A DNA stretch of 64,000 nt, from assembly GCF_014168815.1 (NCBI RefSeq), contig NZ_AP021972.1, positions 4,756,375 through 4,820,374 of the forward strand, read 5' to 3'. A program made the position numbers and the translations under genes. Shown here one piece after another: positions 26,779 to 58,216 of the stretch; within the stretch, counting starts at the first letter, position 1; each line of letters begins with the position of its first letter. This DNA is from Klebsiella sp. WP3-W18-ESBL-02 (GTDB lineage: Bacteria; Pseudomonadota; Gammaproteobacteria; Enterobacterales; Enterobacteriaceae). The notes beneath the pieces are model-generated. The model was not told where the DNA came from, did no database searches, and saw only the letters and a program-made list of their open reading frames with translations.

Positions 26779-27023
26779 CGTCATCGAGTATACACAACCA
26801 AATGAATGGAATTCGGTGATGGGAAATAGGGGAAGGTTTTTTCGGAAAATATGAAAATGAAAGATAAGAAAATAAAATATCAATAAATAACAGCGTGTTA
26901 TCTATTAACTTAAGAATGGCAATATACGGTTAATCCGAAACATACATCTGGGATAGGTGATATTTAGGATTATGCTCAATATCAATATAATTCAGAAAAT
27001 TAAGATATACGGAATTATCTGAC

Positions 27024-27050
27024 AAAAAAATGCCGGCATGATGCCGGCAT
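27024..27050 (-). terminator. Rho-independent terminator of pgi
   Basis: On the minus strand the hairpin ATGCCGGCAT-C-ATGCCGGCAT is followed by TTTTTTTG. Confidence 0.8.
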
Positions 27051-27065
27051 TGAGAATATATAACC

Positions 27066-28959: not shown

Positions 28960-29160
28960 CAGGCCAGAAGAGGCGCGTTGCCCAGGTATACGGTGTTGGA
29001 GGAACCCATCCTGTGAAAACACCTGAAGGGGAGCAACGCCGAGATGGCTGAACAACAGGTTACGTTCAACATCGGCTACAGGGGCTGAATCCCCTGGGTT
29101 GTCACCAGAAGCGTTCGCAGTCGGGCGTTTCGCAAGTGGTGGAGCACTTCTGGGTGAAAT
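28960..29160 (+). ncRNA. Lysine riboswitch (L-box) in the lysC leader
   Basis: The leader ...CCAGAAGAGGCGCGTTGCCCAGGTATACGGTGTTGGAGGA...GGCTACAGGGGCTGAATCCCCTGGGTTGTCACCAGAAGCGTTCGCAGTCGGGCGTTTCGCAAGTGGTGGAGCACTTCTGGGTG is nearly identical to the E. coli lysC leader. Confidence 0.85.
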
Positions 29161-30645: not shown

Positions 30646-31431
30646 TCAGCGCATCACCGTATCATATAACAGTCTGTCCAGCGCCCGGACATCCCCTTCC
30701 CGGCTGTCTGGTAAGGTCGGTGGGATTTCTCCTCTCTCCAGTTCGCCGCGGATAAACGCATGTAACAATGGACGACGCGGACCATACTCAGCCTCACCTG
30801 ACCGCTGTTTGCGCGCCAGCAATTCGTCGATTTCCTGACGCAATGGCGCATCCAGTTCACTTCCCGCCAGCAGCTCGGCAAAACGCATTGGCGGCACGCC
30901 CTTGCCCGCTTCCACCCAACGCACCGCCAACAGGGGTCGCAGAACGTAGAAGTACTTCTTCAATCGCACGTCGTCACCCTGCAAATAACCACGGAAGTTT
31001 TTCCGCGCCATCGAGTAGTAGTGCCAGCGGGCACGTAGCGGAGAAAACCATTTGGGCACCAACGCTTTCAGCACCGACACGGTCGCGTCATCCTGCTGAT
31101 AGACCACCGGCGAATCCAGCCACTCGATAAGCGTCGGGTTTGCGCCTTTGAGTAACCCCAGCGCCTTGCGCCATTCCCAGCCGCACACGTCCAGCTCATC
31201 ATCTATCGGCAGCTCAATAACATCGCGTGGCGCTTCGATCCGCAGATACCATTCAGGGGGATGAACATAGAGAAATCGCACGTCGTAATCGCTGTCCGGC
31301 GAAGCAAATCCCCAGCCACGGCTGCCGGACTCACAGGCATACAGCACCCTGACGCCATAGCGCTGCTCAACCTCTTTTAGCTGGCGCAATACCCGTTCGC
31401 GCATTGCGCCGTCCACTGTGTTGTCGCTCAT
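30646..31431 (-). CDS. Pol-beta-superfamily nucleotidyltransferase, distal gene of the sigma54-driven operon
   Basis: The 261-aa product has the active-site motif ...YACESGSRGWGFASPDSDYDVRFLY... (GS-x9-D-x-D). Its start lies 5 nt after the SPFH gene stop. There is no HEPN partner and no E. coli K-12 counterpart. Confidence 0.6.
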   Translation of the reverse strand: MSDNTVDGAMRERVLRQLKEVEQRYGVRVLYACESGSRGWGFASPDSDYDVRFLYVHPPEWYLRIEAPRDVIELPIDDELDVCGWEWRKALGLLKGANPTLIEWLDSPVVYQQDDATVSVLKALVPKWFSPLRARWHYYSMARKNFRGYLQGDDVRLKKYFYVLRPLLAVRWVEAGKGVPPMRFAELLAGSELDAPLRQEIDELLARKQRSGEAEYGPRRPLLHAFIRGELERGEIPPTLPDSREGDVRALDRLLYDTVMR

Positions 31432-31436
31432 TATTC

Positions 31437-32564
31437 TTATCCTTTTATGTTCACAAGACCGTGCAGCACCTGATCCAGGCCCCCGAACACCGAGATTTTA
31501 TCGATGCGCTCAGCAACTCTTTCGAGGGTTTCCAGTTCTTTTAAGCGCAGCGCTACCGGGTTGTTTTCCATCACTTTTGCCGTATTTAACAGCGATCGCG
31601 TGGCGGCAGTCTCTTCACGACGTCGGATCACGTTGGCCTGGGCGGATTTTTCCGCTTCAACCAGTTGCGATAAAATAGCCTTCATATCGCCGGGCAGGAC
31701 AATATCCTTCACCCCCAGTGAAGCCACCTCAATACCAAACGGCGTCATACGGGCTTTCACCTGCGCGCTCACCACTTCATCGATCACCTGCTTATCTTCC
31801 AGCAATTCGTCCAGCGTGCGCGTTCCCACCGCTTCACGCAGCGCAAACTGCAATTCACGGTAAAGGTGATCCAGCGGTTTAGTCAGTTGACCAAATGCCA
31901 GCAACACATCGCGATAATGCCAGTTCGCCGCCAGGTTTAAACGCAGGTTGACCTTATCTTTGGTCAGTATCTCCTGGCCGCCAACCTCCAGCACCTGCAA
32001 GCGGGTATCCACTACTTCCGCTTCAATCAGATGGTTTACCTTCCAGTATGCCGTCAGACCTGGCGACAGTAATGCCTGTGTCTCACCGTCAATTTTCAGC
32101 ACACCGACGTGCCACGCCGGGACCTGCACCGTTAAGATAGCTTCGCGACCTTTCACCGCACCGCTGCGACGTGGCTGTAATACTGCGTTCATCACGTCAA
32201 CAGGAACCAAAACCTGACGTGTATCCATCCGTACCAGCTTCAGCGCTTCATCGGCCTGCCAGTACAGACGGCGCGTTGCCGGTGGCAAAATTTCCTGCAA
32301 GACGCCGTTGACATACAGCGCCGCGGCTTCGGTATCCGTTGTATCCGCGACCAGGCAGTAACGCTCCACCCAATAAGGCTGAAAGCGGCGTAAATACTCC
32401 GCTAATGCCTGCGGTACTTCGCCGCCATCCCTATTGACGATCAGCACTTCCGGGGTGCTAAACCACGGTAAACGATGCTGACCCGCTTCCAACACCTGAT
32501 AGTAATCACCCTCGCGGGATAAAAGACCTAACTGCGCTTTTTGGATAGTGATTTTCTTAGCCAT
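31437..32564 (-). CDS. SPFH/band-7 (stomatin/flotillin-like) domain protein, proximal gene of the sigma54-driven operon
   Basis: The ATG at 32564 follows an AAGGA RBS, giving MAKKITIQKAQLGLL... (375 aa). The C-terminal half has the SPFH signature ...ILTKDKVNLRLNLAANWHYRDV...GIEVASLGVKDIVLPGDMKAILSQLVEAEKSAQANVIRRREET.... No transmembrane segment is evident. The ORF track started at 32639. Confidence 0.6.
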   Translation of the reverse strand: MAKKITIQKAQLGLLSREGDYYQVLEAGQHRLPWFSTPEVLIVNRDGGEVPQALAEYLRRFQPYWVERYCLVADTTDTEAAALYVNGVLQEILPPATRRLYWQADEALKLVRMDTRQVLVPVDVMNAVLQPRRSGAVKGREAILTVQVPAWHVGVLKIDGETQALLSPGLTAYWKVNHLIEAEVVDTRLQVLEVGGQEILTKDKVNLRLNLAANWHYRDVLLAFGQLTKPLDHLYRELQFALREAVGTRTLDELLEDKQVIDEVVSAQVKARMTPFGIEVASLGVKDIVLPGDMKAILSQLVEAEKSAQANVIRRREETAATRSLLNTAKVMENNPVALRLKELETLERVAERIDKISVFGGLDQVLHGLVNIKG

Positions 32565-32728
32565 TTTATATTCCTTAATATCGTTCAGGCGCGGGTGCAG
32601 GGGCGAAGCGGCAGGGGAATTCCCTTTTGCCTGCCGCACGGCATCTTTACCGGCAGCCTGTTCTGGAGCGTGCTAACTGCACATCACTCCGCTTTATTTC
32701 TATGATTAACAACCCGTTTTCATTCGGG

Positions 32729-32763
32729 GATGAAATTGGGAATCGAACCCACTGTGTGTCATC
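32729..32763 (-). other. tRNA-like T-arm/acceptor minihelix motif in the operon leader (candidate structured RNA element)
   Basis: The minus-strand RNA is 5'-GAUGACACACAG-UGGG-UUCGAUU-CCCA-AUUUCAUC-3'. It has a canonical T-loop (UUCGAUU) on a 4-bp GGG/CCC stem, enclosed by a 5-bp GAUGA/UCAUC helix. There are no D or anticodon arms, so it is not a tRNA gene. Confidence 0.3.
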
Positions 32764-32860
32764 GGCTGACGGAACACTCCCGGAAAACAGCCTGTGCCGT
32801 TCCTGACGTGCCGGCGGGGTTTAACCCCCTGCGTTTTCAGCGTGATTGACGCAAGTGTTA

Positions 32861-32877
32861 TTGCCAGAAGCGTGCCA
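32861..32877 (-). promoter_or_regulatory. sigma54 (-24/-12) promoter driving the SPFH + nucleotidyltransferase operon
   Basis: The minus strand reads CTGGCAC-GCTTC-TGGCAA, i.e. TGGCAC-N5-TGGC with the GG and GC dinucleotides correctly spaced. It is divergent from the RtcR-like bEBP gene, and the leader to the SPFH ATG is about 285 nt. Confidence 0.55.
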
Positions 32878-33012: not shown

Positions 33013-34593
33013 ATGAAAAAACGGCGGGTAGTGATTGGCGTACTGGGAACGGTGCTCGATAAGCGCGGCAAGCGGGCCAATCGGTTTAAGAAGTGGCGAC
33101 CCACGGTTGGGCTATGCCAACAACCCGATTTCCCTGTCGACAGGCTGGAACTCCTCCACCAGCCACGCGATGAGAGCATGGCGCAACGGTTGATTGAAGA
33201 CGTCGCGCTGCTTTCGCCGTACACCCAGGTTCGCCCGCATGCCGTCACCATTAACGATCCGTGGGACTTTGAAGAGGTCTACGCCGCGTTTCTCGACTTT
33301 GCCACGCATTATGAATTTGATACGGAAAACGAAGAGTATCTGGTGCACATCACCACCGGGACTCACGTGGCACAAATCTGCTGGTTTTTGCTGACGGAAG
33401 CCCGCTACCTGCCCGCCAGCCTGCTGCAAACCGGCCCGGCGCCACGCGGTTCATCAGATGAGGCCGTCGCCGCTGGCGTCTGCTCGGTTATCGATCTCGA
33501 TTTAAGCCGCTACGCCACGCTCACCAGTCGTTTTCAGCGCGAACAGCAGCGGTCGGTCTCTTTTCTGAAAGCCGGGATTGATACGCGCAACGCCACCTTC
33601 AATAAACTGATCGATCGCATTGAGCGGGTAGCTCTGCGTTCGACCGACCCGATCCTGCTCACCGGCCCTACCGGCGCGGGCAAATCCTTCCTCGCGAAAC
33701 GTATTTTTCAGCTACGCCAGTCGCGGCATCTGGTGGCGGGAAAACTGGTGGCGGTTAACTGCGCAACCCTGCGCGGCGACAATGCGATGTCCACGCTGTT
33801 TGGTCACGTGAAGGGAGCCTTTACCGGCGCACTCACGGCGCGCAGCGGGTTGCTGCGAGAAGCGGATGGCGGCGTGCTGTTTCTCGATGAGATAGCCGAA
33901 TTGGGGCTGGACGAGCAGGCCATGCTACTCAAAGCAATTGAAGAAAAAACCTTTTTCCCGTTTGGGTCAGACAAAGAAGTACGCAGCGATTTTCAGCTGA
34001 TTGCTGGCACCCATCGCGACATGCGGCAATGGGTATCTGAAGGCCGTTTTCGCGAGGATCTCTACGCGCGTATCAATATGTGGAGCTTCGCCCTGCCCGG
34101 TCTGGCGCAGCGGCGGGAAGATATCGCGCCGAACGTCGAGTATGAGCTGCAACGTTTCTCCAGCAGCAAACAGACGCAAATCCGTTTCGATAAAGAAGCC
34201 CGCGCTTACTATCTGGCATTTGCCTGTTCCTCACAGGCACAGTGGCGTGGCAATTTTCGCGAGCTAAGTTCATCCATCGCGCGTATGGCGACGCTTGCCG
34301 AACAAGGTCGCATCACCTTATCCCTTGTCGAAGAAGAGATTGCGCTGCTAAAGGAGAGTTGGCAGATAGCCACTCCGCAGCCTGAACTGAATATGGACAT
34401 TGACCTGTTCGATCGCCGCCAGTTAGAAACGGTACTGGAAGTGTGCCGCCGCTGCGCGTCGCTGTCGGAAGCCGGACGCGAACTGTTTGCCGTCTCGCGG
34501 CAGAAAAAAGCCAATCCCAACGATGCAGACCGCCTGCGCAAATATCTCGCTCGTTTCGGGCTAAGCTGGGAAAACCTCCGCAGCGCAACATGA
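33013..34593 (+). CDS. RtcR-like sigma54-dependent transcriptional activator with an N-terminal CARF domain and AAA+ sigma54-activation domain
   Basis: The 526-aa product is colinear with E. coli RtcR, by memory roughly 50% identity. It carries the CARF-like N-terminus ...HITTGTHVAQICWFLL..., Walker A GPTGAGKS, the sigma54-contact GAFTGA motif (GHVKGAFTGA), and a C-terminal HTH ...DADRLRKYLARFGL.... Confidence 0.8.
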   Translation: MKKRRVVIGVLGTVLDKRGKRANRFKKWRPTVGLCQQPDFPVDRLELLHQPRDESMAQRLIEDVALLSPYTQVRPHAVTINDPWDFEEVYAAFLDFATHYEFDTENEEYLVHITTGTHVAQICWFLLTEARYLPASLLQTGPAPRGSSDEAVAAGVCSVIDLDLSRYATLTSRFQREQQRSVSFLKAGIDTRNATFNKLIDRIERVALRSTDPILLTGPTGAGKSFLAKRIFQLRQSRHLVAGKLVAVNCATLRGDNAMSTLFGHVKGAFTGALTARSGLLREADGGVLFLDEIAELGLDEQAMLLKAIEEKTFFPFGSDKEVRSDFQLIAGTHRDMRQWVSEGRFREDLYARINMWSFALPGLAQRREDIAPNVEYELQRFSSSKQTQIRFDKEARAYYLAFACSSQAQWRGNFRELSSSIARMATLAEQGRITLSLVEEEIALLKESWQIATPQPELNMDIDLFDRRQLETVLEVCRRCASLSEAGRELFAVSRQKKANPNDADRLRKYLARFGLSWENLRSAT

Positions 34594-35631: not shown

Positions 35632-35644
35632 CGCTCAAGAGTCG

Positions 35645-35720
35645 GCCCGATAAGCGGAGCGCCATCGGGCTAAATAACGCACCTTGCCGGATGGCGGCGT
35701 CAACGCCTTATCCGGCCTAC
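35645..35720. repeat. REP/BIME element
   Basis: GCCCGATAAGCGGAGCGCCATCGGGC is followed by GCCGGATGGCGGCGTCAACGCCTTATCCGGCCTAC. Confidence 0.8.
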
Positions 35721-53177: not shown

Positions 53178-53297
53178 ATGCCTGGCAGTTCCCTACTCTC
53201 GCATGGGGAGACCCCACACTACCATCGGCGCTACGGCGTTTCACTTCTGAGTTCGGCATGGGGTCAGGTGGGACCACCGCGCTACGGCCGCCAGGCA
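53178..53297 (-). rRNA. rrfB: 5S ribosomal RNA
   Basis: The 120-nt minus-strand sequence TGCCTGGCGGCCGTAGCGCGGTGGTCCCACCTGACCCCATGCCGAACTCAGAAGTGAAACGCCGTAGCGCCGATGGTAGTGTGGGGTCTCCCCATGCGAGAGTAGGGAACTGCCAGGCAT matches enterobacterial 5S rRNA. Confidence 0.95.
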
Positions 53298-53389
53298 AAT
53301 TCTGTATTAACCCGCTTTTCGCCGGTCAATGTAATCTGTAATCAATGCTGAAAATCGTCTCAATTTCGCCAAAACATCTTCGGCGTTGT

Positions 53390-56296
<2,907 letters not shown>

Positions 56297-56515
56297 TCAC
56301 AACCCGAAGATGTTTCGTAAAACACCATCGTGTTGCGAAAATTTGAGAGACTCGAACACACCGCTTATCTGTTCTTATTACGGAGAACAGACACAGTGTG
56401 TCGTTTCAATTTTCAGCTTGATCCAGATTTTTAAAGAGCAAATATCTCAAACAAGACTCGGAAGTCTGTTTTGAGATACTAAGGTCGGCGACTTTCACTC
56501 ACACTAACCAGCAAG

Positions 56516-56591
56516 TGGCGTCCCCTAGGGGATTCGAACCCCTGTTACCGCCGTGAAAGGGCGGTGTCCTGGGCCTCTAGACGAAGGGGAC
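56516..56591 (-). tRNA. gltT: tRNA-Glu (UUC) in the 16S-23S spacer
   Basis: The minus-strand sequence GTCCCCTTCGTCTAGAGGCCCAGGACACCGCCCTTTCACGGCGGTAACAGGGGTTCGAATCCCCTAGGGGACGCCA is identical to E. coli tRNA-Glu and includes the encoded CCA. Confidence 0.95.
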
Positions 56592-56676
56592 ACTGAAGTC
56601 TCAATCGCAAGACGCCTTGCTATTTACTTTTCATCAGACAATCTGTGTGAGCACTTCAAAGAACGCTTCTTTAAGG

Positions 56677-58216
<1,540 letters not shown>

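What the first reader, a model, noticed from the sequence alone, without database searches (positions are those of the whole stretch)
32690..32835. tRNA-like T-arm/acceptor minihelix and a G5-UUAAA-C4 hairpin embedded in the sigma54 operon leader
On the minus strand the leader contains 5'-GAUGACACACAG-UGGG-UUCGAUU-CCCA-AUUUCAUC-3'. This has a canonical T-loop (UUCGAUU) on a GGG/CCC stem, closed by a 5-bp GAUGA/UCAUC helix, i.e. a tRNA-like acceptor/T-arm minihelix without D or anticodon arms. About 60 nt upstream in the transcript lies GGGGGUUAAACCCC, a near-perfect short hairpin near the predicted +15 to +30. Rtc-type loci in Salmonella and Deinococcus encode Y RNAs with tRNA-like domains, and RtcB/RtcR respond to tRNA fragments. 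A tRNA-mimic in the leader of an RtcR-like-controlled operon that also encodes a nucleotidyltransferase therefore stands out. It could be a processed small RNA, an NTase substrate or decoy, or a cis-regulatory element. Alternatively it is a decayed 3' tRNA fragment marking an old integration site.
Basis: partly seen in the sequence, partly recalled or inferred. Interest (0 to 1): 0.6.

Follow-up and report, generated by a model that had tools for sequence, protein, structure and literature searches.

The report
Vestigial tRNA-like module in RNA-repair leader
The T-arm/acceptor minihelix is real: it is a shrunken copy of the tRNA-like RNA that accompanies Band-7 (slipin) genes in RtcR-controlled RNA-repair operons, and it lies between two other conserved RNA domains in one long structured leader; the kind of RNA was predicted in 2016 and has never been tested in the laboratory.

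Summary
They lie between a bona fide rtcR gene and a slipin(Band-7)-RlaP operon. Taken alone, the minihelix is no more stable than shuffled sequence. The evidence that it is real is comparative.

- **Same element in relatives:** 74 of the 78 related loci that hold the conserved 5' domain carry a T-arm at this position (0-54 nt after it). The T-loop is invariant across the family, and both the T-stem and the acceptor helix covary.
- **Full tRNA in distant relatives:** in Pseudomonas, Neisseria and Orbaceae the same position holds one or two complete tRNA-like genes. Their "anticodons" are inconsistent or replaced by tetraloops.
- **Intermediates:** other Enterobacterales show intermediate forms.
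- **The G5-UUAAA-C4 hairpin:** it is helix P1 of a conserved, covariation-supported 5' domain that abuts the minihelix. A conserved 3' domain follows.
- **Integration scar:** rejected.

The function, probably an RNA partner of the slipin scaffold, is inferred and not shown. I rate it a new variant of a known kind, of moderate interest.

The parts
32862..32877 (-). Sigma54 (-24/-12) promoter TGGCACGCTTCTGGCA; the predicted transcript start is about 32851.
   Evidence: Sequence. The same 16-mer, or a near-identical one, is found about 135 nt from the rtcR start codon in most related loci.
32765..32841 (-). Conserved 5' domain.
   Evidence: RNAalifold on 27 close and 22 diverse leaders. Covariance model R1 hits exactly once in 79 of 82 sources, with the window hit at 32752-32848 scoring 86.5 bits. 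95.6% of cells are paired against 40-56% in slid controls, and 20 of 21 pairs show changes on both sides. P0 was predicted only in the close-relative alignment.
32729..32763 (-). tRNA-like minihelix. It comprises the acceptor-like 5' strand GAUGA (32763-32759), a 7-nt linker, the T-arm UGGG-UUCGAUU-CCCA (32751-32737), and the acceptor-like 3' strand UCAUC (32733-32729).
   Evidence: Sequence. The T-loop is invariant and the T-stem covaries. The acceptor helix keeps its position while its sequence changes between clades, and pairing of a leader's own two strands exceeds pairing between strands of different leaders in all 2000 permutations. The position is orthologous to complete tRNA-like genes in L069 and L076-L080.
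32718..32735 (-). Alternative hairpin UUUCAU-ccccga-AUGAAA. It re-uses the acceptor 3' strand, and its loop holds the CC remnant of the ACC(A) tail.
   Evidence: Compensatory variants are TCACT/AGTGA and TCACC/GGTGA. Own-versus-cross pairing gives 0 of 2000 permutations. Lonsdalea, Hafnia and Providencia have analogous hairpins.
32703..32722 (-). Conserved single-stranded block UGAAAACGGGUUGUUAAUCA.
   Evidence: Nearly invariant in alignment A1 (TG.AAAC.TGGTTGT) and shared with Superficieibacter L022; identity 0.75-0.90 to the genera closest to the window (L001-L015), falling to 0.45-0.60 in L023 and L030.
32665..32690 (-). Middle hairpin GGAGUGAUGUGCAGUUAGCACGCUCC. Its sequence is variable.
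   Evidence: Single-sequence fold. In alignment A1 the two arms change together by eye (GGGGTG/CGCCCC, GGGCGC/GTGCCC). It was not tested formally.
32586..32660 (-). Conserved 3' domain: a long-range helix CAGGCUGCCGG...CCCGCGCCUG encloses the helix GCGGCAGG...CCUGCCGC and an A-rich bulge. It ends 8 nt before the Shine-Dalgarno sequence.
   Evidence: RNAalifold on A1 and on 20 diverse leaders in A4, where 20 of 23 pairs have compensatory changes. Identity is 0.77-0.99 against 0.47-0.72 at third codon positions.
31437..32564 (-). Slipin / SPFH (Band-7) protein, 375 aa. It is the first gene of the operon and the constant protein partner of the leader RNA.
   Evidence: Pfam Band_7 over residues 172-343. 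Similar to stomatin in the PDB. 97% identical to the Citrobacter freundii slipin. Present in all 82 loci.
30646..31431 (-). RlaP (RNA-ligase-associated Pol-beta) nucleotidyltransferase, 261 aa.
   Evidence: Pfam PF10127, E = 5.6e-96. Published biochemistry of Pseudomonas RlaP shows addition of 1-2 NMP to RNA 3'-OH ends (PMC12776372).
33013..34593 (+). RtcR, the CARF-domain sigma54 enhancer-binding activator, transcribed divergently.
   Evidence: Pfam RtcR plus Sigma54_activat. NCBIfam NF038308 equivalog, 820.7 bits.

Best explanation
The minihelix is the vestigial tRNA-like module of a Band-7-associated tRNA-like RNA (b7a-tRNA). It is transcribed from the RtcR/sigma54 promoter as part of a roughly 290-nt structured leader of the slipin-(rtcB)-rlaP RNA-repair operon.

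The leader has three conserved modules:
- a 5' three-helix domain, whose P1 is the G5-UUAAA-C4 hairpin;
- the tRNA-like module, directly abutting the 5' domain;
- a 3' multi-helix domain ending just before the ribosome-binding site.

In Pseudomonas, Neisseria and Orbaceae the middle module is one or two full cloverleaves. They have a 5-7 bp acceptor, a D-arm, a non-decoding "anticodon" stem (often capped by a tetraloop), a T-arm and an ACC(A) tail. In most Enterobacterales the D and anticodon arms have collapsed to a linker that keeps a GG. In the Citrobacter/Klebsiella/Enterobacter clade, which includes this window, only the T-arm and a 5-bp acceptor-like helix remain.

Most likely mechanism (inferred, not shown): when damaged tRNA fragments activate RtcR, the leader is made together with the slipin. 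Its tRNA-elbow mimic (the invariant T-loop) and flanking domains then serve as the RNA partner of the SPFH scaffold, as a cofactor or tether for RNA-repair enzymes or tRNA-like substrates. This would parallel the Ro60-Y RNA pairing in rsr-yrlBA-rtcBA operons. In relatives with a full acceptor and ACCA tail, tRNA-end processing probably releases the RNA. In this window the eroded acceptor makes such processing doubtful, and the element may act within the leader.

My confidence that it is a reduced b7a-tRNA ortholog is about 0.85. My confidence in the RNA-partner mechanism is about 0.4.
For: **Context.** A bona fide RtcR, a slipin and RlaP flank the leader. The same rtcR | leader | slipin layout holds in 80 genome loci, and a sigma54 promoter match was found in most of them.

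**T-arm.** It is present 0-54 nt after the 5' domain in 74 of 78 loci. The T-loop is invariant, and T-stem pairs 3 to 5 covary: 84.7% paired against 30-63% in slid controls.

**Acceptor helix.** It sits at a constant position with at least 12 different complementary sequence pairs across clades. Own-partner pairing beats cross-partner pairing in all 2000 permutations.

**Full tRNA-like genes at the orthologous position.** ARAGORN calls tRNA-like genes in L069, L076, L077, L079 and L080 with inconsistent anticodons. The Rfam tRNA model scores above its gathering threshold in L069 and L076-L079, from 35 to 68 bits.

**Positional orthology.** The 5' domain model R1 hits immediately upstream of these tRNA-like genes in Pseudomonas and of the minihelix in the window.

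**Flanking domains.** Both are supported by covariation.

**Purifying selection.** The T-arm, 5' domain and 3' domain are 0.72-0.99 identical between genera. Third codon positions of the slipin gene are only 0.47-0.72 identical.

**Constant partner.** The leader persists where rtcB is lost (25 of 82 loci) and where rlaP is absent (the Proteus loci). Slipin is always present.

**Literature.** b7a-tRNA was predicted next to Band-7 and RtcB genes and is regarded as possibly redundant with YrlA (10.1101/312249). RtcR senses tRNA 5' halves that end in a 2',3'-cyclic phosphate (PMC7790460).
Against: - In this window the cloverleaf is gone, and neither ARAGORN nor Rfam detects anything.
- The minihelix is thermodynamically unremarkable.
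- In the window's own clade the fourth and fifth T-stem pairs are often unpaired, and the acceptor helix is broken in Phytobacter, Pluralibacter and some Klebsiella loci. The acceptor function may therefore be decaying.
- The acceptor 3' strand also forms a better-conserved hairpin with downstream sequence.
- Three lineages have lost the T-arm altogether while keeping the 5' domain, so the T-arm is dispensable in some backgrounds.
- No expression, processing or binding data exist. b7a-tRNA itself has not been validated experimentally.
- The permutation tests and the model-fitted alignment do not control for phylogeny.
- I could not read the 2016 paper that defined b7a-tRNA.
Confidence: 0.6

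Rival explanations
1. The leader is purely cis-acting. The conserved structures, including the T-arm, control stability, processing or translation of the slipin-rlaP mRNA. One possible route is a switch between the acceptor-like helix (GAUGA/UCAUC) and the competing downstream hairpin (UUUCAU/AUGAAA). The tRNA likeness would then be only an evolutionary relic.
For: - The element is inside a 5' UTR, with no terminator between it and the coding sequence.
- The acceptor 3' strand has two mutually exclusive partners, and both covary.
- The 3' domain ends 8 nt before the Shine-Dalgarno sequence.
- The cloverleaf features needed for tRNA-type processing are eroded in this clade.
Against: - No terminator-like or Shine-Dalgarno-sequestering pairing is evident.
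- The T-loop sequence is invariant across genera that differ at most neighbouring positions. That points to recognition of the loop itself rather than to a mere structural spacer.
- In distant relatives the module is a full tRNA-like unit with a 7-bp acceptor and an ACCA tail, which is the signature of a released RNA.
Confidence: 0.25
2. The element is a tRNA decoy or a substrate. It would bind, and so titrate or occupy, a tRNA-directed enzyme. Candidates are an anticodon nuclease or other ribotoxin, the RlaP nucleotidyltransferase, the CCA-adding enzyme, RNase P, or TruB/TrmA. It would not be acting as a partner of the slipin.
For: - A T-arm with an acceptor is the classical minimal recognition unit of tRNA-end enzymes (established knowledge).
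- RlaP adds 1-2 nucleotides to RNA 3'-OH ends and acts on tRNAs (PMC12776372).
- Many orthologs keep an ACC(A) tail after the acceptor.
Against: - The anticodon loop, which anticodon nucleases target, is the least conserved part. It is replaced by a tetraloop or deleted.
- The RNA persists in the Proteus loci, which lack rlaP.
- In the window the acceptor helix is interrupted by a 7-nt/3-nt internal loop, and the tail reads CCCG rather than ACCA. It would be a poor substrate for end-processing enzymes.
Confidence: 0.12
3. It is a decayed 3' fragment of a tRNA gene, marking an old integration (att) site of the rtcR-slipin-rlaP island.
For: The roughly 4-kb unit lies between lysC and a transporter gene, and its gene content varies between genera. 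Fragments of tRNA 3' ends are typical att scars (established knowledge).
Against: - The motif is internal, between rtcR and slipin, and not at an island edge.
- There is no second copy in the 64 kb at up to 3 mismatches, and no direct repeat involves it.
- It is held at the same internal position relative to the promoter and the 5' domain in 74 of 78 loci from many genera, with covariation and purifying selection.
Confidence: 0.02

Closest known systems
[quoted passage not shown]
   Same: It is encoded next to a Band-7/SPFH gene in an RtcB-type, RtcR-controlled RNA-repair locus and is derived from tRNA. The distant orthologous loci found here carry exactly such tRNA look-alikes.
   Different: The window copy has lost the D-arm and anticodon arm and most of the acceptor, so it no longer "strongly resembles an authentic tRNA" and tRNA finders miss it. 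This operon has also lost rtcB. The flanking conserved 5' and 3' domains are not mentioned in the description available to me, and I could not read the original paper.
YrlA / bacterial Y RNAs with a tRNA-like domain (Rfam RF02553; Chen et al. 2014, PMC4201824; Wang et al. 2018, 10.1101/312249)
   Same: It is a non-coding RNA with a T-arm-based tRNA mimic, encoded in RtcR-regulated RNA-repair operons beside a putative scaffold protein. The literature proposes that the two are functionally interchangeable.
   Different: - There is no Ro60/Rsr gene here.
- There is no Ro-binding stem.
- The topology is that of a normal tRNA, with the ends at the acceptor, and not the permuted T-arm/acceptor-loop/D-arm layout of YrlA.
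- The Rfam YrlA model does not hit the window. It hits only weakly (27 bits against a gathering score of 69) across the junction of two tandem units in Pseudomonas.
tRNA-like processing modules embedded in longer transcripts (for example mascRNA of MALAT1, or bacterial tRNA-mRNA co-transcripts such as the tRNAs upstream of tufB)
   Same: A tRNA-shaped unit inside a longer RNA could direct RNase P or 3'-end processing and so separate an upstream RNA from a downstream one. This resemblance is recalled from established knowledge and was not tested.
   Different: No processing has been shown here. The window's acceptor helix is only 5 bp and is interrupted. The only Rfam mascRNA match is a chance-level hit on the opposite strand.

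Membership tests
b7a-tRNA (Band-7-associated tRNA-like RNA) | Encoded immediately adjacent to a Band-7/SPFH-domain gene. | tested here: met
   The minihelix is 165 nt upstream of the slipin start codon, on the same strand. The arrangement is the same in 74 of 78 related loci.
b7a-tRNA (Band-7-associated tRNA-like RNA) | Part of an RtcB-type RNA-repair gene neighbourhood. | tested here: inconclusive
   RtcR and RlaP are present, but there is no rtcB anywhere in the 64-kb window. In 57 of 82 orthologous loci rtcB lies between slipin and rlaP, so the window looks like a derived deletion.
b7a-tRNA (Band-7-associated tRNA-like RNA) | Strongly resembles an authentic tRNA (cloverleaf). | tested here: not met
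   ARAGORN and the Rfam tRNA model find nothing in the leader. Only a 4-bp T-arm and a 5-bp acceptor-like helix remain. The feature is met in the distant orthologous loci L069 and L076-L080.
b7a-tRNA (Band-7-associated tRNA-like RNA) | Common descent with the full-size members (positional orthology). | tested here: met
   The 5' domain model R1 hits directly upstream both of the window minihelix and of the Pseudomonas tRNA-like genes. A graded series of intermediates exists, for example L019, L022, L047 and L049.
YrlA / Y RNA | Matches the Rfam Y RNA or YrlA covariance models. | tested here: not met
   No match at E <= 10 in the leader.
YrlA / Y RNA | Encoded beside, and bound by, a Ro60/Rsr (TROVE) protein. 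| tested here: not met
   The operon encodes only slipin and RlaP. Binding cannot be tested with these tools.
Genuine tRNA gene or tRNA pseudogene / att scar | A cloverleaf with an anticodon, or a terminal tRNA fragment repeated at the island borders. | tested here: not met
   No tRNA call. No repeat partner. The location is internal and is conserved under selection.
Structured RNA under selection (generic) | Compensatory base changes that maintain the helices. | tested here: met
   T-stem, acceptor helix, 5' domain and 3' domain. Caveats: alignment A3 is fitted to the model, and the permutation tests ignore phylogeny.

The most novel reading that the evidence does not exclude
The Band-7-associated RNA may not be just a tRNA look-alike. 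It may be a tripartite structured RNA of roughly 300-450 nt: a 5' three-helix domain, one or two tRNA-like units, and a 3' multi-helix domain.

The two flanking domains are absent from Rfam and, as far as I could establish, undescribed. They would be the constant parts. The tRNA module would be undergoing stepwise reduction, from cloverleaf, to a form lacking the D and anticodon arms, to a T-arm minihelix, to outright loss.

If so, the RNA would be the SPFH-scaffold counterpart of a Y RNA, with the elbow-mimicking T-loop as an optional adaptor. The weak YrlA-model match across the junction of two tandem units in Pseudomonas would also hint that the permuted tRNA-like domain of YrlA arose from such tandem units.
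Probability: 0.35. Interest if true: 0.6.

Novelty: new variant of a known kind. Interest (0 to 1): 0.45.

Why it matters
RtcR-controlled RNA-repair operons respond to broken tRNAs, but the roles of their accessory RNAs (Y RNAs, b7a-tRNA) and scaffold proteins (Ro60, Band-7) are unknown. b7a-tRNA has never been examined experimentally.

This analysis adds three things:
- The RNA is present, in cryptic reduced form, in common and tractable Enterobacteriaceae: the Citrobacter freundii complex, Klebsiella, Enterobacter, and about 30% of complete E. coli genomes.
- It is embedded in a larger conserved structured leader, with two further covariation-supported domains.
- Its constant genomic partners are the slipin and RtcR, not RtcB or RlaP.

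The natural reduction series says which parts matter. The T-loop and the flanking domains are conserved, whereas the anticodon arm is dispensable. That gives concrete mutants and model organisms for testing what a tRNA mimic does in RNA repair.

Tried and rejected
- **tRNA and RNA-family searches.** ARAGORN on the window and Rfam searches found nothing at the leader: gathering thresholds on the whole window, and E <= 10 on 14 kb and on 491 nt. The only hits were a 15-nt tmRNA T-arm fragment and chance-level matches.
- **Single-sequence thermodynamics.** The minihelix has z = -0.57, and the whole leader has z = -1.9. This is not evidence on its own.
- **Per-sequence shuffle tests of the 5-bp acceptor helix.** They gave p of about 0.4, so I replaced them with cross-clade covariation and own-versus-cross pairing tests.
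- **Att scar.** No second copy and no flanking direct repeats. Rejected.
- **Terminator or attenuator reading.** The only terminator-like hit is P1 read on the wrong strand. Rejected.
- **The founding paper.** Three attempts to read Burroughs and Aravind 2016 failed because it is not held. I relied on its description in 10.1101/312249.
- **Other literature searches.** Searches for an RtcR tRNA-like leader, for b7a-tRNA, and for the Pseudomonas locus tags found nothing further on the RNA.
- **Slipin structure.** An AlphaFold2 model from a 19-sequence alignment of near-identical homologs gave pLDDT 39.7. It is unusable, so I ran no fold search, and the N-terminal ~170 residues remain uncharacterised.
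- **MAFFT register.** The MAFFT alignment of whole leaders put the acceptor 3' strand out of register, so I counted acceptor pairs by script instead.
Full report
**1. Observation**

The minus strand of the window reads GATGACACACAG-TGGG-TTCGATT-CCCA-ATT-TCATC at 32763..32729. GGGGGTTAAACCCC lies at 32829..32816. Upstream, at 32877..32862, is TGGCACGCTTCTGGCA. This matches the sigma54 -24/-12 consensus at all but one position, so transcription should start near 32851.

The divergent gene at 33013-34593 (+) is a bona fide RtcR. It matches Pfam RtcR plus Sigma54_activat, and the NCBIfam RtcR equivalog at 820 bits against a cut-off of 650. Downstream of the leader lie two genes:
- a slipin/Band-7 protein, 32564..31437 (-);
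- an RlaP nucleotidyltransferase (PF10127), 31431..30646 (-).

The unit sits between lysC, which has its lysine riboswitch, and a transporter gene. The slipin is 97% identical to that of Citrobacter freundii.

**2. Is it more than chance?**

Not when judged alone:
- ARAGORN finds only the rrn-operon tRNA-Glu.
- Rfam finds nothing in the leader, even at E <= 10 on a 491-nt search.
- A 5-bp closing helix appears in about 40% of shuffled flanks.

The case rests on comparison with relatives.

**3. Comparative evidence for the tRNA-like module**

A scan of one genome per species with the slipin protein returned 80 loci. The E. coli locus L081 and the window bring the set to 82 sources. Almost all have the same layout: rtcR, transcribed divergently, then a leader, then slipin. 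A match to the sigma54 promoter pattern was found about 135 nt from the rtcR start in most of those scanned. The exceptions are L018 and L081, both Escherichia, which lack rtcR.

A T-arm motif (GGTTCGAnTCC) lies in the leader of most loci. In 74 of the 78 loci that hold the 5' domain it starts 0-54 nt (median 18) after that domain.

Across 51 distinct T-arms:
- The loop and the two inner G-C pairs are invariant.
- The three outer pairs covary: G-C to A-U in 12 sequences, C-G to U-A in 9, and U-A to G-C, C-G or A-U in 11.
- 84.7% of cells are paired, against 30-63% when the partner columns are slid.

The acceptor-like helix keeps its place, 7-16 nt upstream of the T-stem and 0-3 nt after it, while its sequence changes between clades. 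Examples:
- GATGA/TCATC, AATGA/TCATT and AGTG/CACT;
- GCGAA/TTCGC, GCAAA/TTTGC and CGATA/TATCG;
- TGCGAAG/CTTCGCA and TCGAAT/ATTCGA;
- TCAGTG/CACTGA, TTAGTG/CACTAA, GGTG/CACC and GTGAT/ATCAC;
- TTTTGAA/TTCAAAA.

Pairing each 5' flank with its own 3' flank scores higher than pairing it with another lineage's flank in all 2000 permutations. This test does not control for relatedness.

**4. What it derives from**

In Pseudomonas (L069, L077, L078), Neisseria (L076) and Orbaceae (L079, L080) the same position holds one or two complete tRNA-like genes. ARAGORN calls them in all of these except L078. The Rfam tRNA model scores 35-68 bits, above its gathering threshold, in all except L080.

Their "anticodons" are mutually inconsistent: Arg-tcg/acg, Asn-att, Pro-cgg/agg, Leu-cag without a long variable arm, or undetermined. 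In some the loop is a UUCG tetraloop. The acceptor is 5-7 bp and is often followed by ACCA.

Other Enterobacterales show intermediates. Kosakonia, Franconibacter, Proteus, Xenorhabdus, Erwinia, Hafnia and Lonsdalea have an acceptor, a 10-20 nt linker that usually keeps GGTT (a D-loop G18-G19 mimic), a T-arm, an acceptor 3' strand and an ACC tail. Superficieibacter (L022) combines this form with a downstream block otherwise specific to the window's clade.

The window's clade (Citrobacter, Klebsiella, Enterobacter, Phytobacter and others) is the most reduced. In it the outer T-stem pairs and, in several genera, the acceptor helix are no longer maintained.

Three lineages have lost the T-arm entirely: two Providencia loci and Xenorhabdus hominickii.

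**5. The hairpin and the rest of the leader**

The G5-UUAAA-C4 hairpin is helix P1 of a conserved 5' domain (window 32841..32765). A closing helix P0 encloses P1 and a long bulged hairpin P2.

A covariance model built from 22 diverse leaders hits exactly once in 79 of 82 sources, always in the leader and on the slipin strand. The window hit is 32752-32848 at 86.5 bits. On the resulting alignment 95.6% of cells are paired, against 40-56% in slid controls, and 20 of 21 pairs show changes on both sides. That alignment is fitted to the model.

The domain ends one nucleotide before the acceptor 5' strand in the window. In Pseudomonas it ends 0-3 nt before the first tRNA-like gene. This establishes positional orthology.

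After the minihelix come four further elements:
- a hairpin that re-uses the acceptor 3' strand (32735..32718), with compensatory variants TCACT/AGTGA and TCACC/GGTGA;
- a conserved single-stranded block (32722..32703);
- a variable hairpin (32690..32665);
- a conserved 3' domain (32660..32586), in which 20 of 23 predicted pairs show compensatory changes in a 20-species alignment.

Between genera, the T-arm, 5' domain and 3' domain are 0.72-0.99 identical. The third codon positions of the adjacent slipin gene are 0.47-0.72 identical, and the leader spacers 0.31-0.92. The three modules are therefore under purifying selection.

**6. What is known**

[quoted passage not shown] It is described there as:
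- encoded next to a Band-7 protein and RtcB;
- strongly resembling an authentic tRNA;
- possibly redundant with YrlA;
- not validated experimentally.

The original paper is not in the library. From memory, its abstract speaks of SPFH/Band-7 modules with a cognate novel tRNA-like molecule, and of a novel ligase-associated nucleotidyltransferase (RlaP).

Two further published results bear on the context:
- RlaP adds one or two nucleotides to RNA 3'-OH ends and is proposed to restore nucleotides lost from damaged tRNAs (PMC12776372).

The window element is thus a reduced ortholog of a predicted but untested RNA class. It fails the "looks like a tRNA" criterion but meets the context and descent criteria.

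**7. How it probably works**

Shown:
- It is transcribed, by inference from the promoter, as the 5' part of an RtcR-dependent mRNA.
- It is a conserved, structured, tripartite leader.
- Its constant genomic partners are rtcR and slipin. rtcB is missing from 25 of 82 loci, including the window, and rlaP is missing from the Proteus loci.

Inferred: the RNA is the partner of the SPFH scaffold, in the way Y RNA is the partner of Ro60, and the invariant T-loop acts as a tRNA-elbow mimic. In relatives with a 7-bp acceptor and an ACCA tail, tRNA-end processing probably releases the RNA. In the window the 5-bp helix is interrupted and the tail reads CCCG, so release is doubtful and the element may act within the leader.

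The rivals are a purely cis-regulatory leader, possibly switching between the two partners of the acceptor 3' strand, and a decoy or substrate for tRNA-directed enzymes.

The integration-scar idea is rejected. The motif is internal, has no repeat partner, and is conserved in place under selection.

**8. Limits**

- There are no expression, processing or binding data.
- The covariation statistics are not phylogeny-aware.
- P0 and the middle hairpin rest on close relatives only.
- The founding paper could not be read, so I cannot say whether the reduced forms and flanking domains are already described.
- The slipin structure model failed at pLDDT 39.7, which leaves its N-terminal ~170 residues, a candidate RNA-binding part, uncharacterised.

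**9. Verdict**

The element is a new, reduced variant of a known but unvalidated kind. Interest is moderate. The useful points are a natural reduction series, two apparently undescribed conserved flanking domains, and presence in tractable enterobacteria, including about 30% of complete E. coli genomes.

Noticed in passing
window 30646-32564 (operon); loci L001-L081: The operon has no RtcB ligase, and no rtcB is found anywhere in the 64-kb window. In 57 of 82 orthologous loci rtcB lies between slipin and rlaP. It has been lost in several separate clades, while the leader RNA, slipin and, in all but the two Escherichia loci (L018, L081), rtcR are kept. The Proteus loci instead lack rlaP.
   Followed up: yes
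L081 3626-4371 (E. coli DSM 103246); About 30% of complete E. coli genomes (1632 of 5426) carry the slipin next to lysC. In L081 the sigma54 promoter, 5' domain, T-arm and 3' domain are retained, but rtcR has been replaced by AT-rich DNA and PTS genes, and a zeta-toxin gene lies beside the nucleotidyltransferase. Which activator, if any, drives this copy is unknown.
   Followed up: partly
L077 3643-3702: The Rfam YrlA model matches weakly (27 bits, E = 0.0015, gathering score 69) across the junction of the two tandem tRNA-like units. It aligns the T-arm of unit 1, the short acceptor region, and the D-arm of unit 2. That is the permuted order found in YrlA, which may hint at how the YrlA tRNA-like domain arose.
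   Followed up: no
window 32586-32660 (-): A conserved multi-helix 3' domain of the leader ends 8 nt before the Shine-Dalgarno sequence. Twenty of its 23 pairs show compensatory changes across 20 species. Its core motifs (GGCARAA ... TTYCCC ... CTTCGC) can be recognised by eye as far away as Pseudomonas. It has no Rfam match.
   Followed up: partly
loci L019, L033, L042, L049, L050, L061, L076, L079, L080 (just 3' of the acceptor strand): An ACC or ACCA tail follows the acceptor-like 3' strand in many orthologs. In the window's clade its remnant (YCC) sits in the loop of the hairpin that re-uses the acceptor 3' strand.
   Followed up: partly
L048, L065, L070 (leaders): Two Providencia loci and Xenorhabdus hominickii keep the 5' domain but have lost the T-arm. 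In L048 and L065 an unrelated hairpin replaces it. L034 has a T-loop variant (GGCTTCGAATCCC).
   Followed up: partly
window 31437-32564 (-), slipin residues 1-170: The slipin has no evident transmembrane segment. Its N-terminal ~170 residues match no Pfam, NCBIfam or PDB sequence, while its C-terminal half resembles stomatin, which forms 16-mer assemblies. The AlphaFold2 model was too poor to use (pLDDT 39.7).
   Followed up: partly
L077 6850-8229: In Pseudomonas a HEAT-repeat protein gene lies between rtcB and rlaP in the same operon.
   Followed up: no
window 26911-27061, 28960-29157, 35644-35717, 53180-58216: Other RNA features in the window are an STnc430 sRNA homolog, the lysC lysine riboswitch, a REP/naRNA4-like palindromic element, and an rrn operon with tRNA-Glu and StyR-44.
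   Followed up: no
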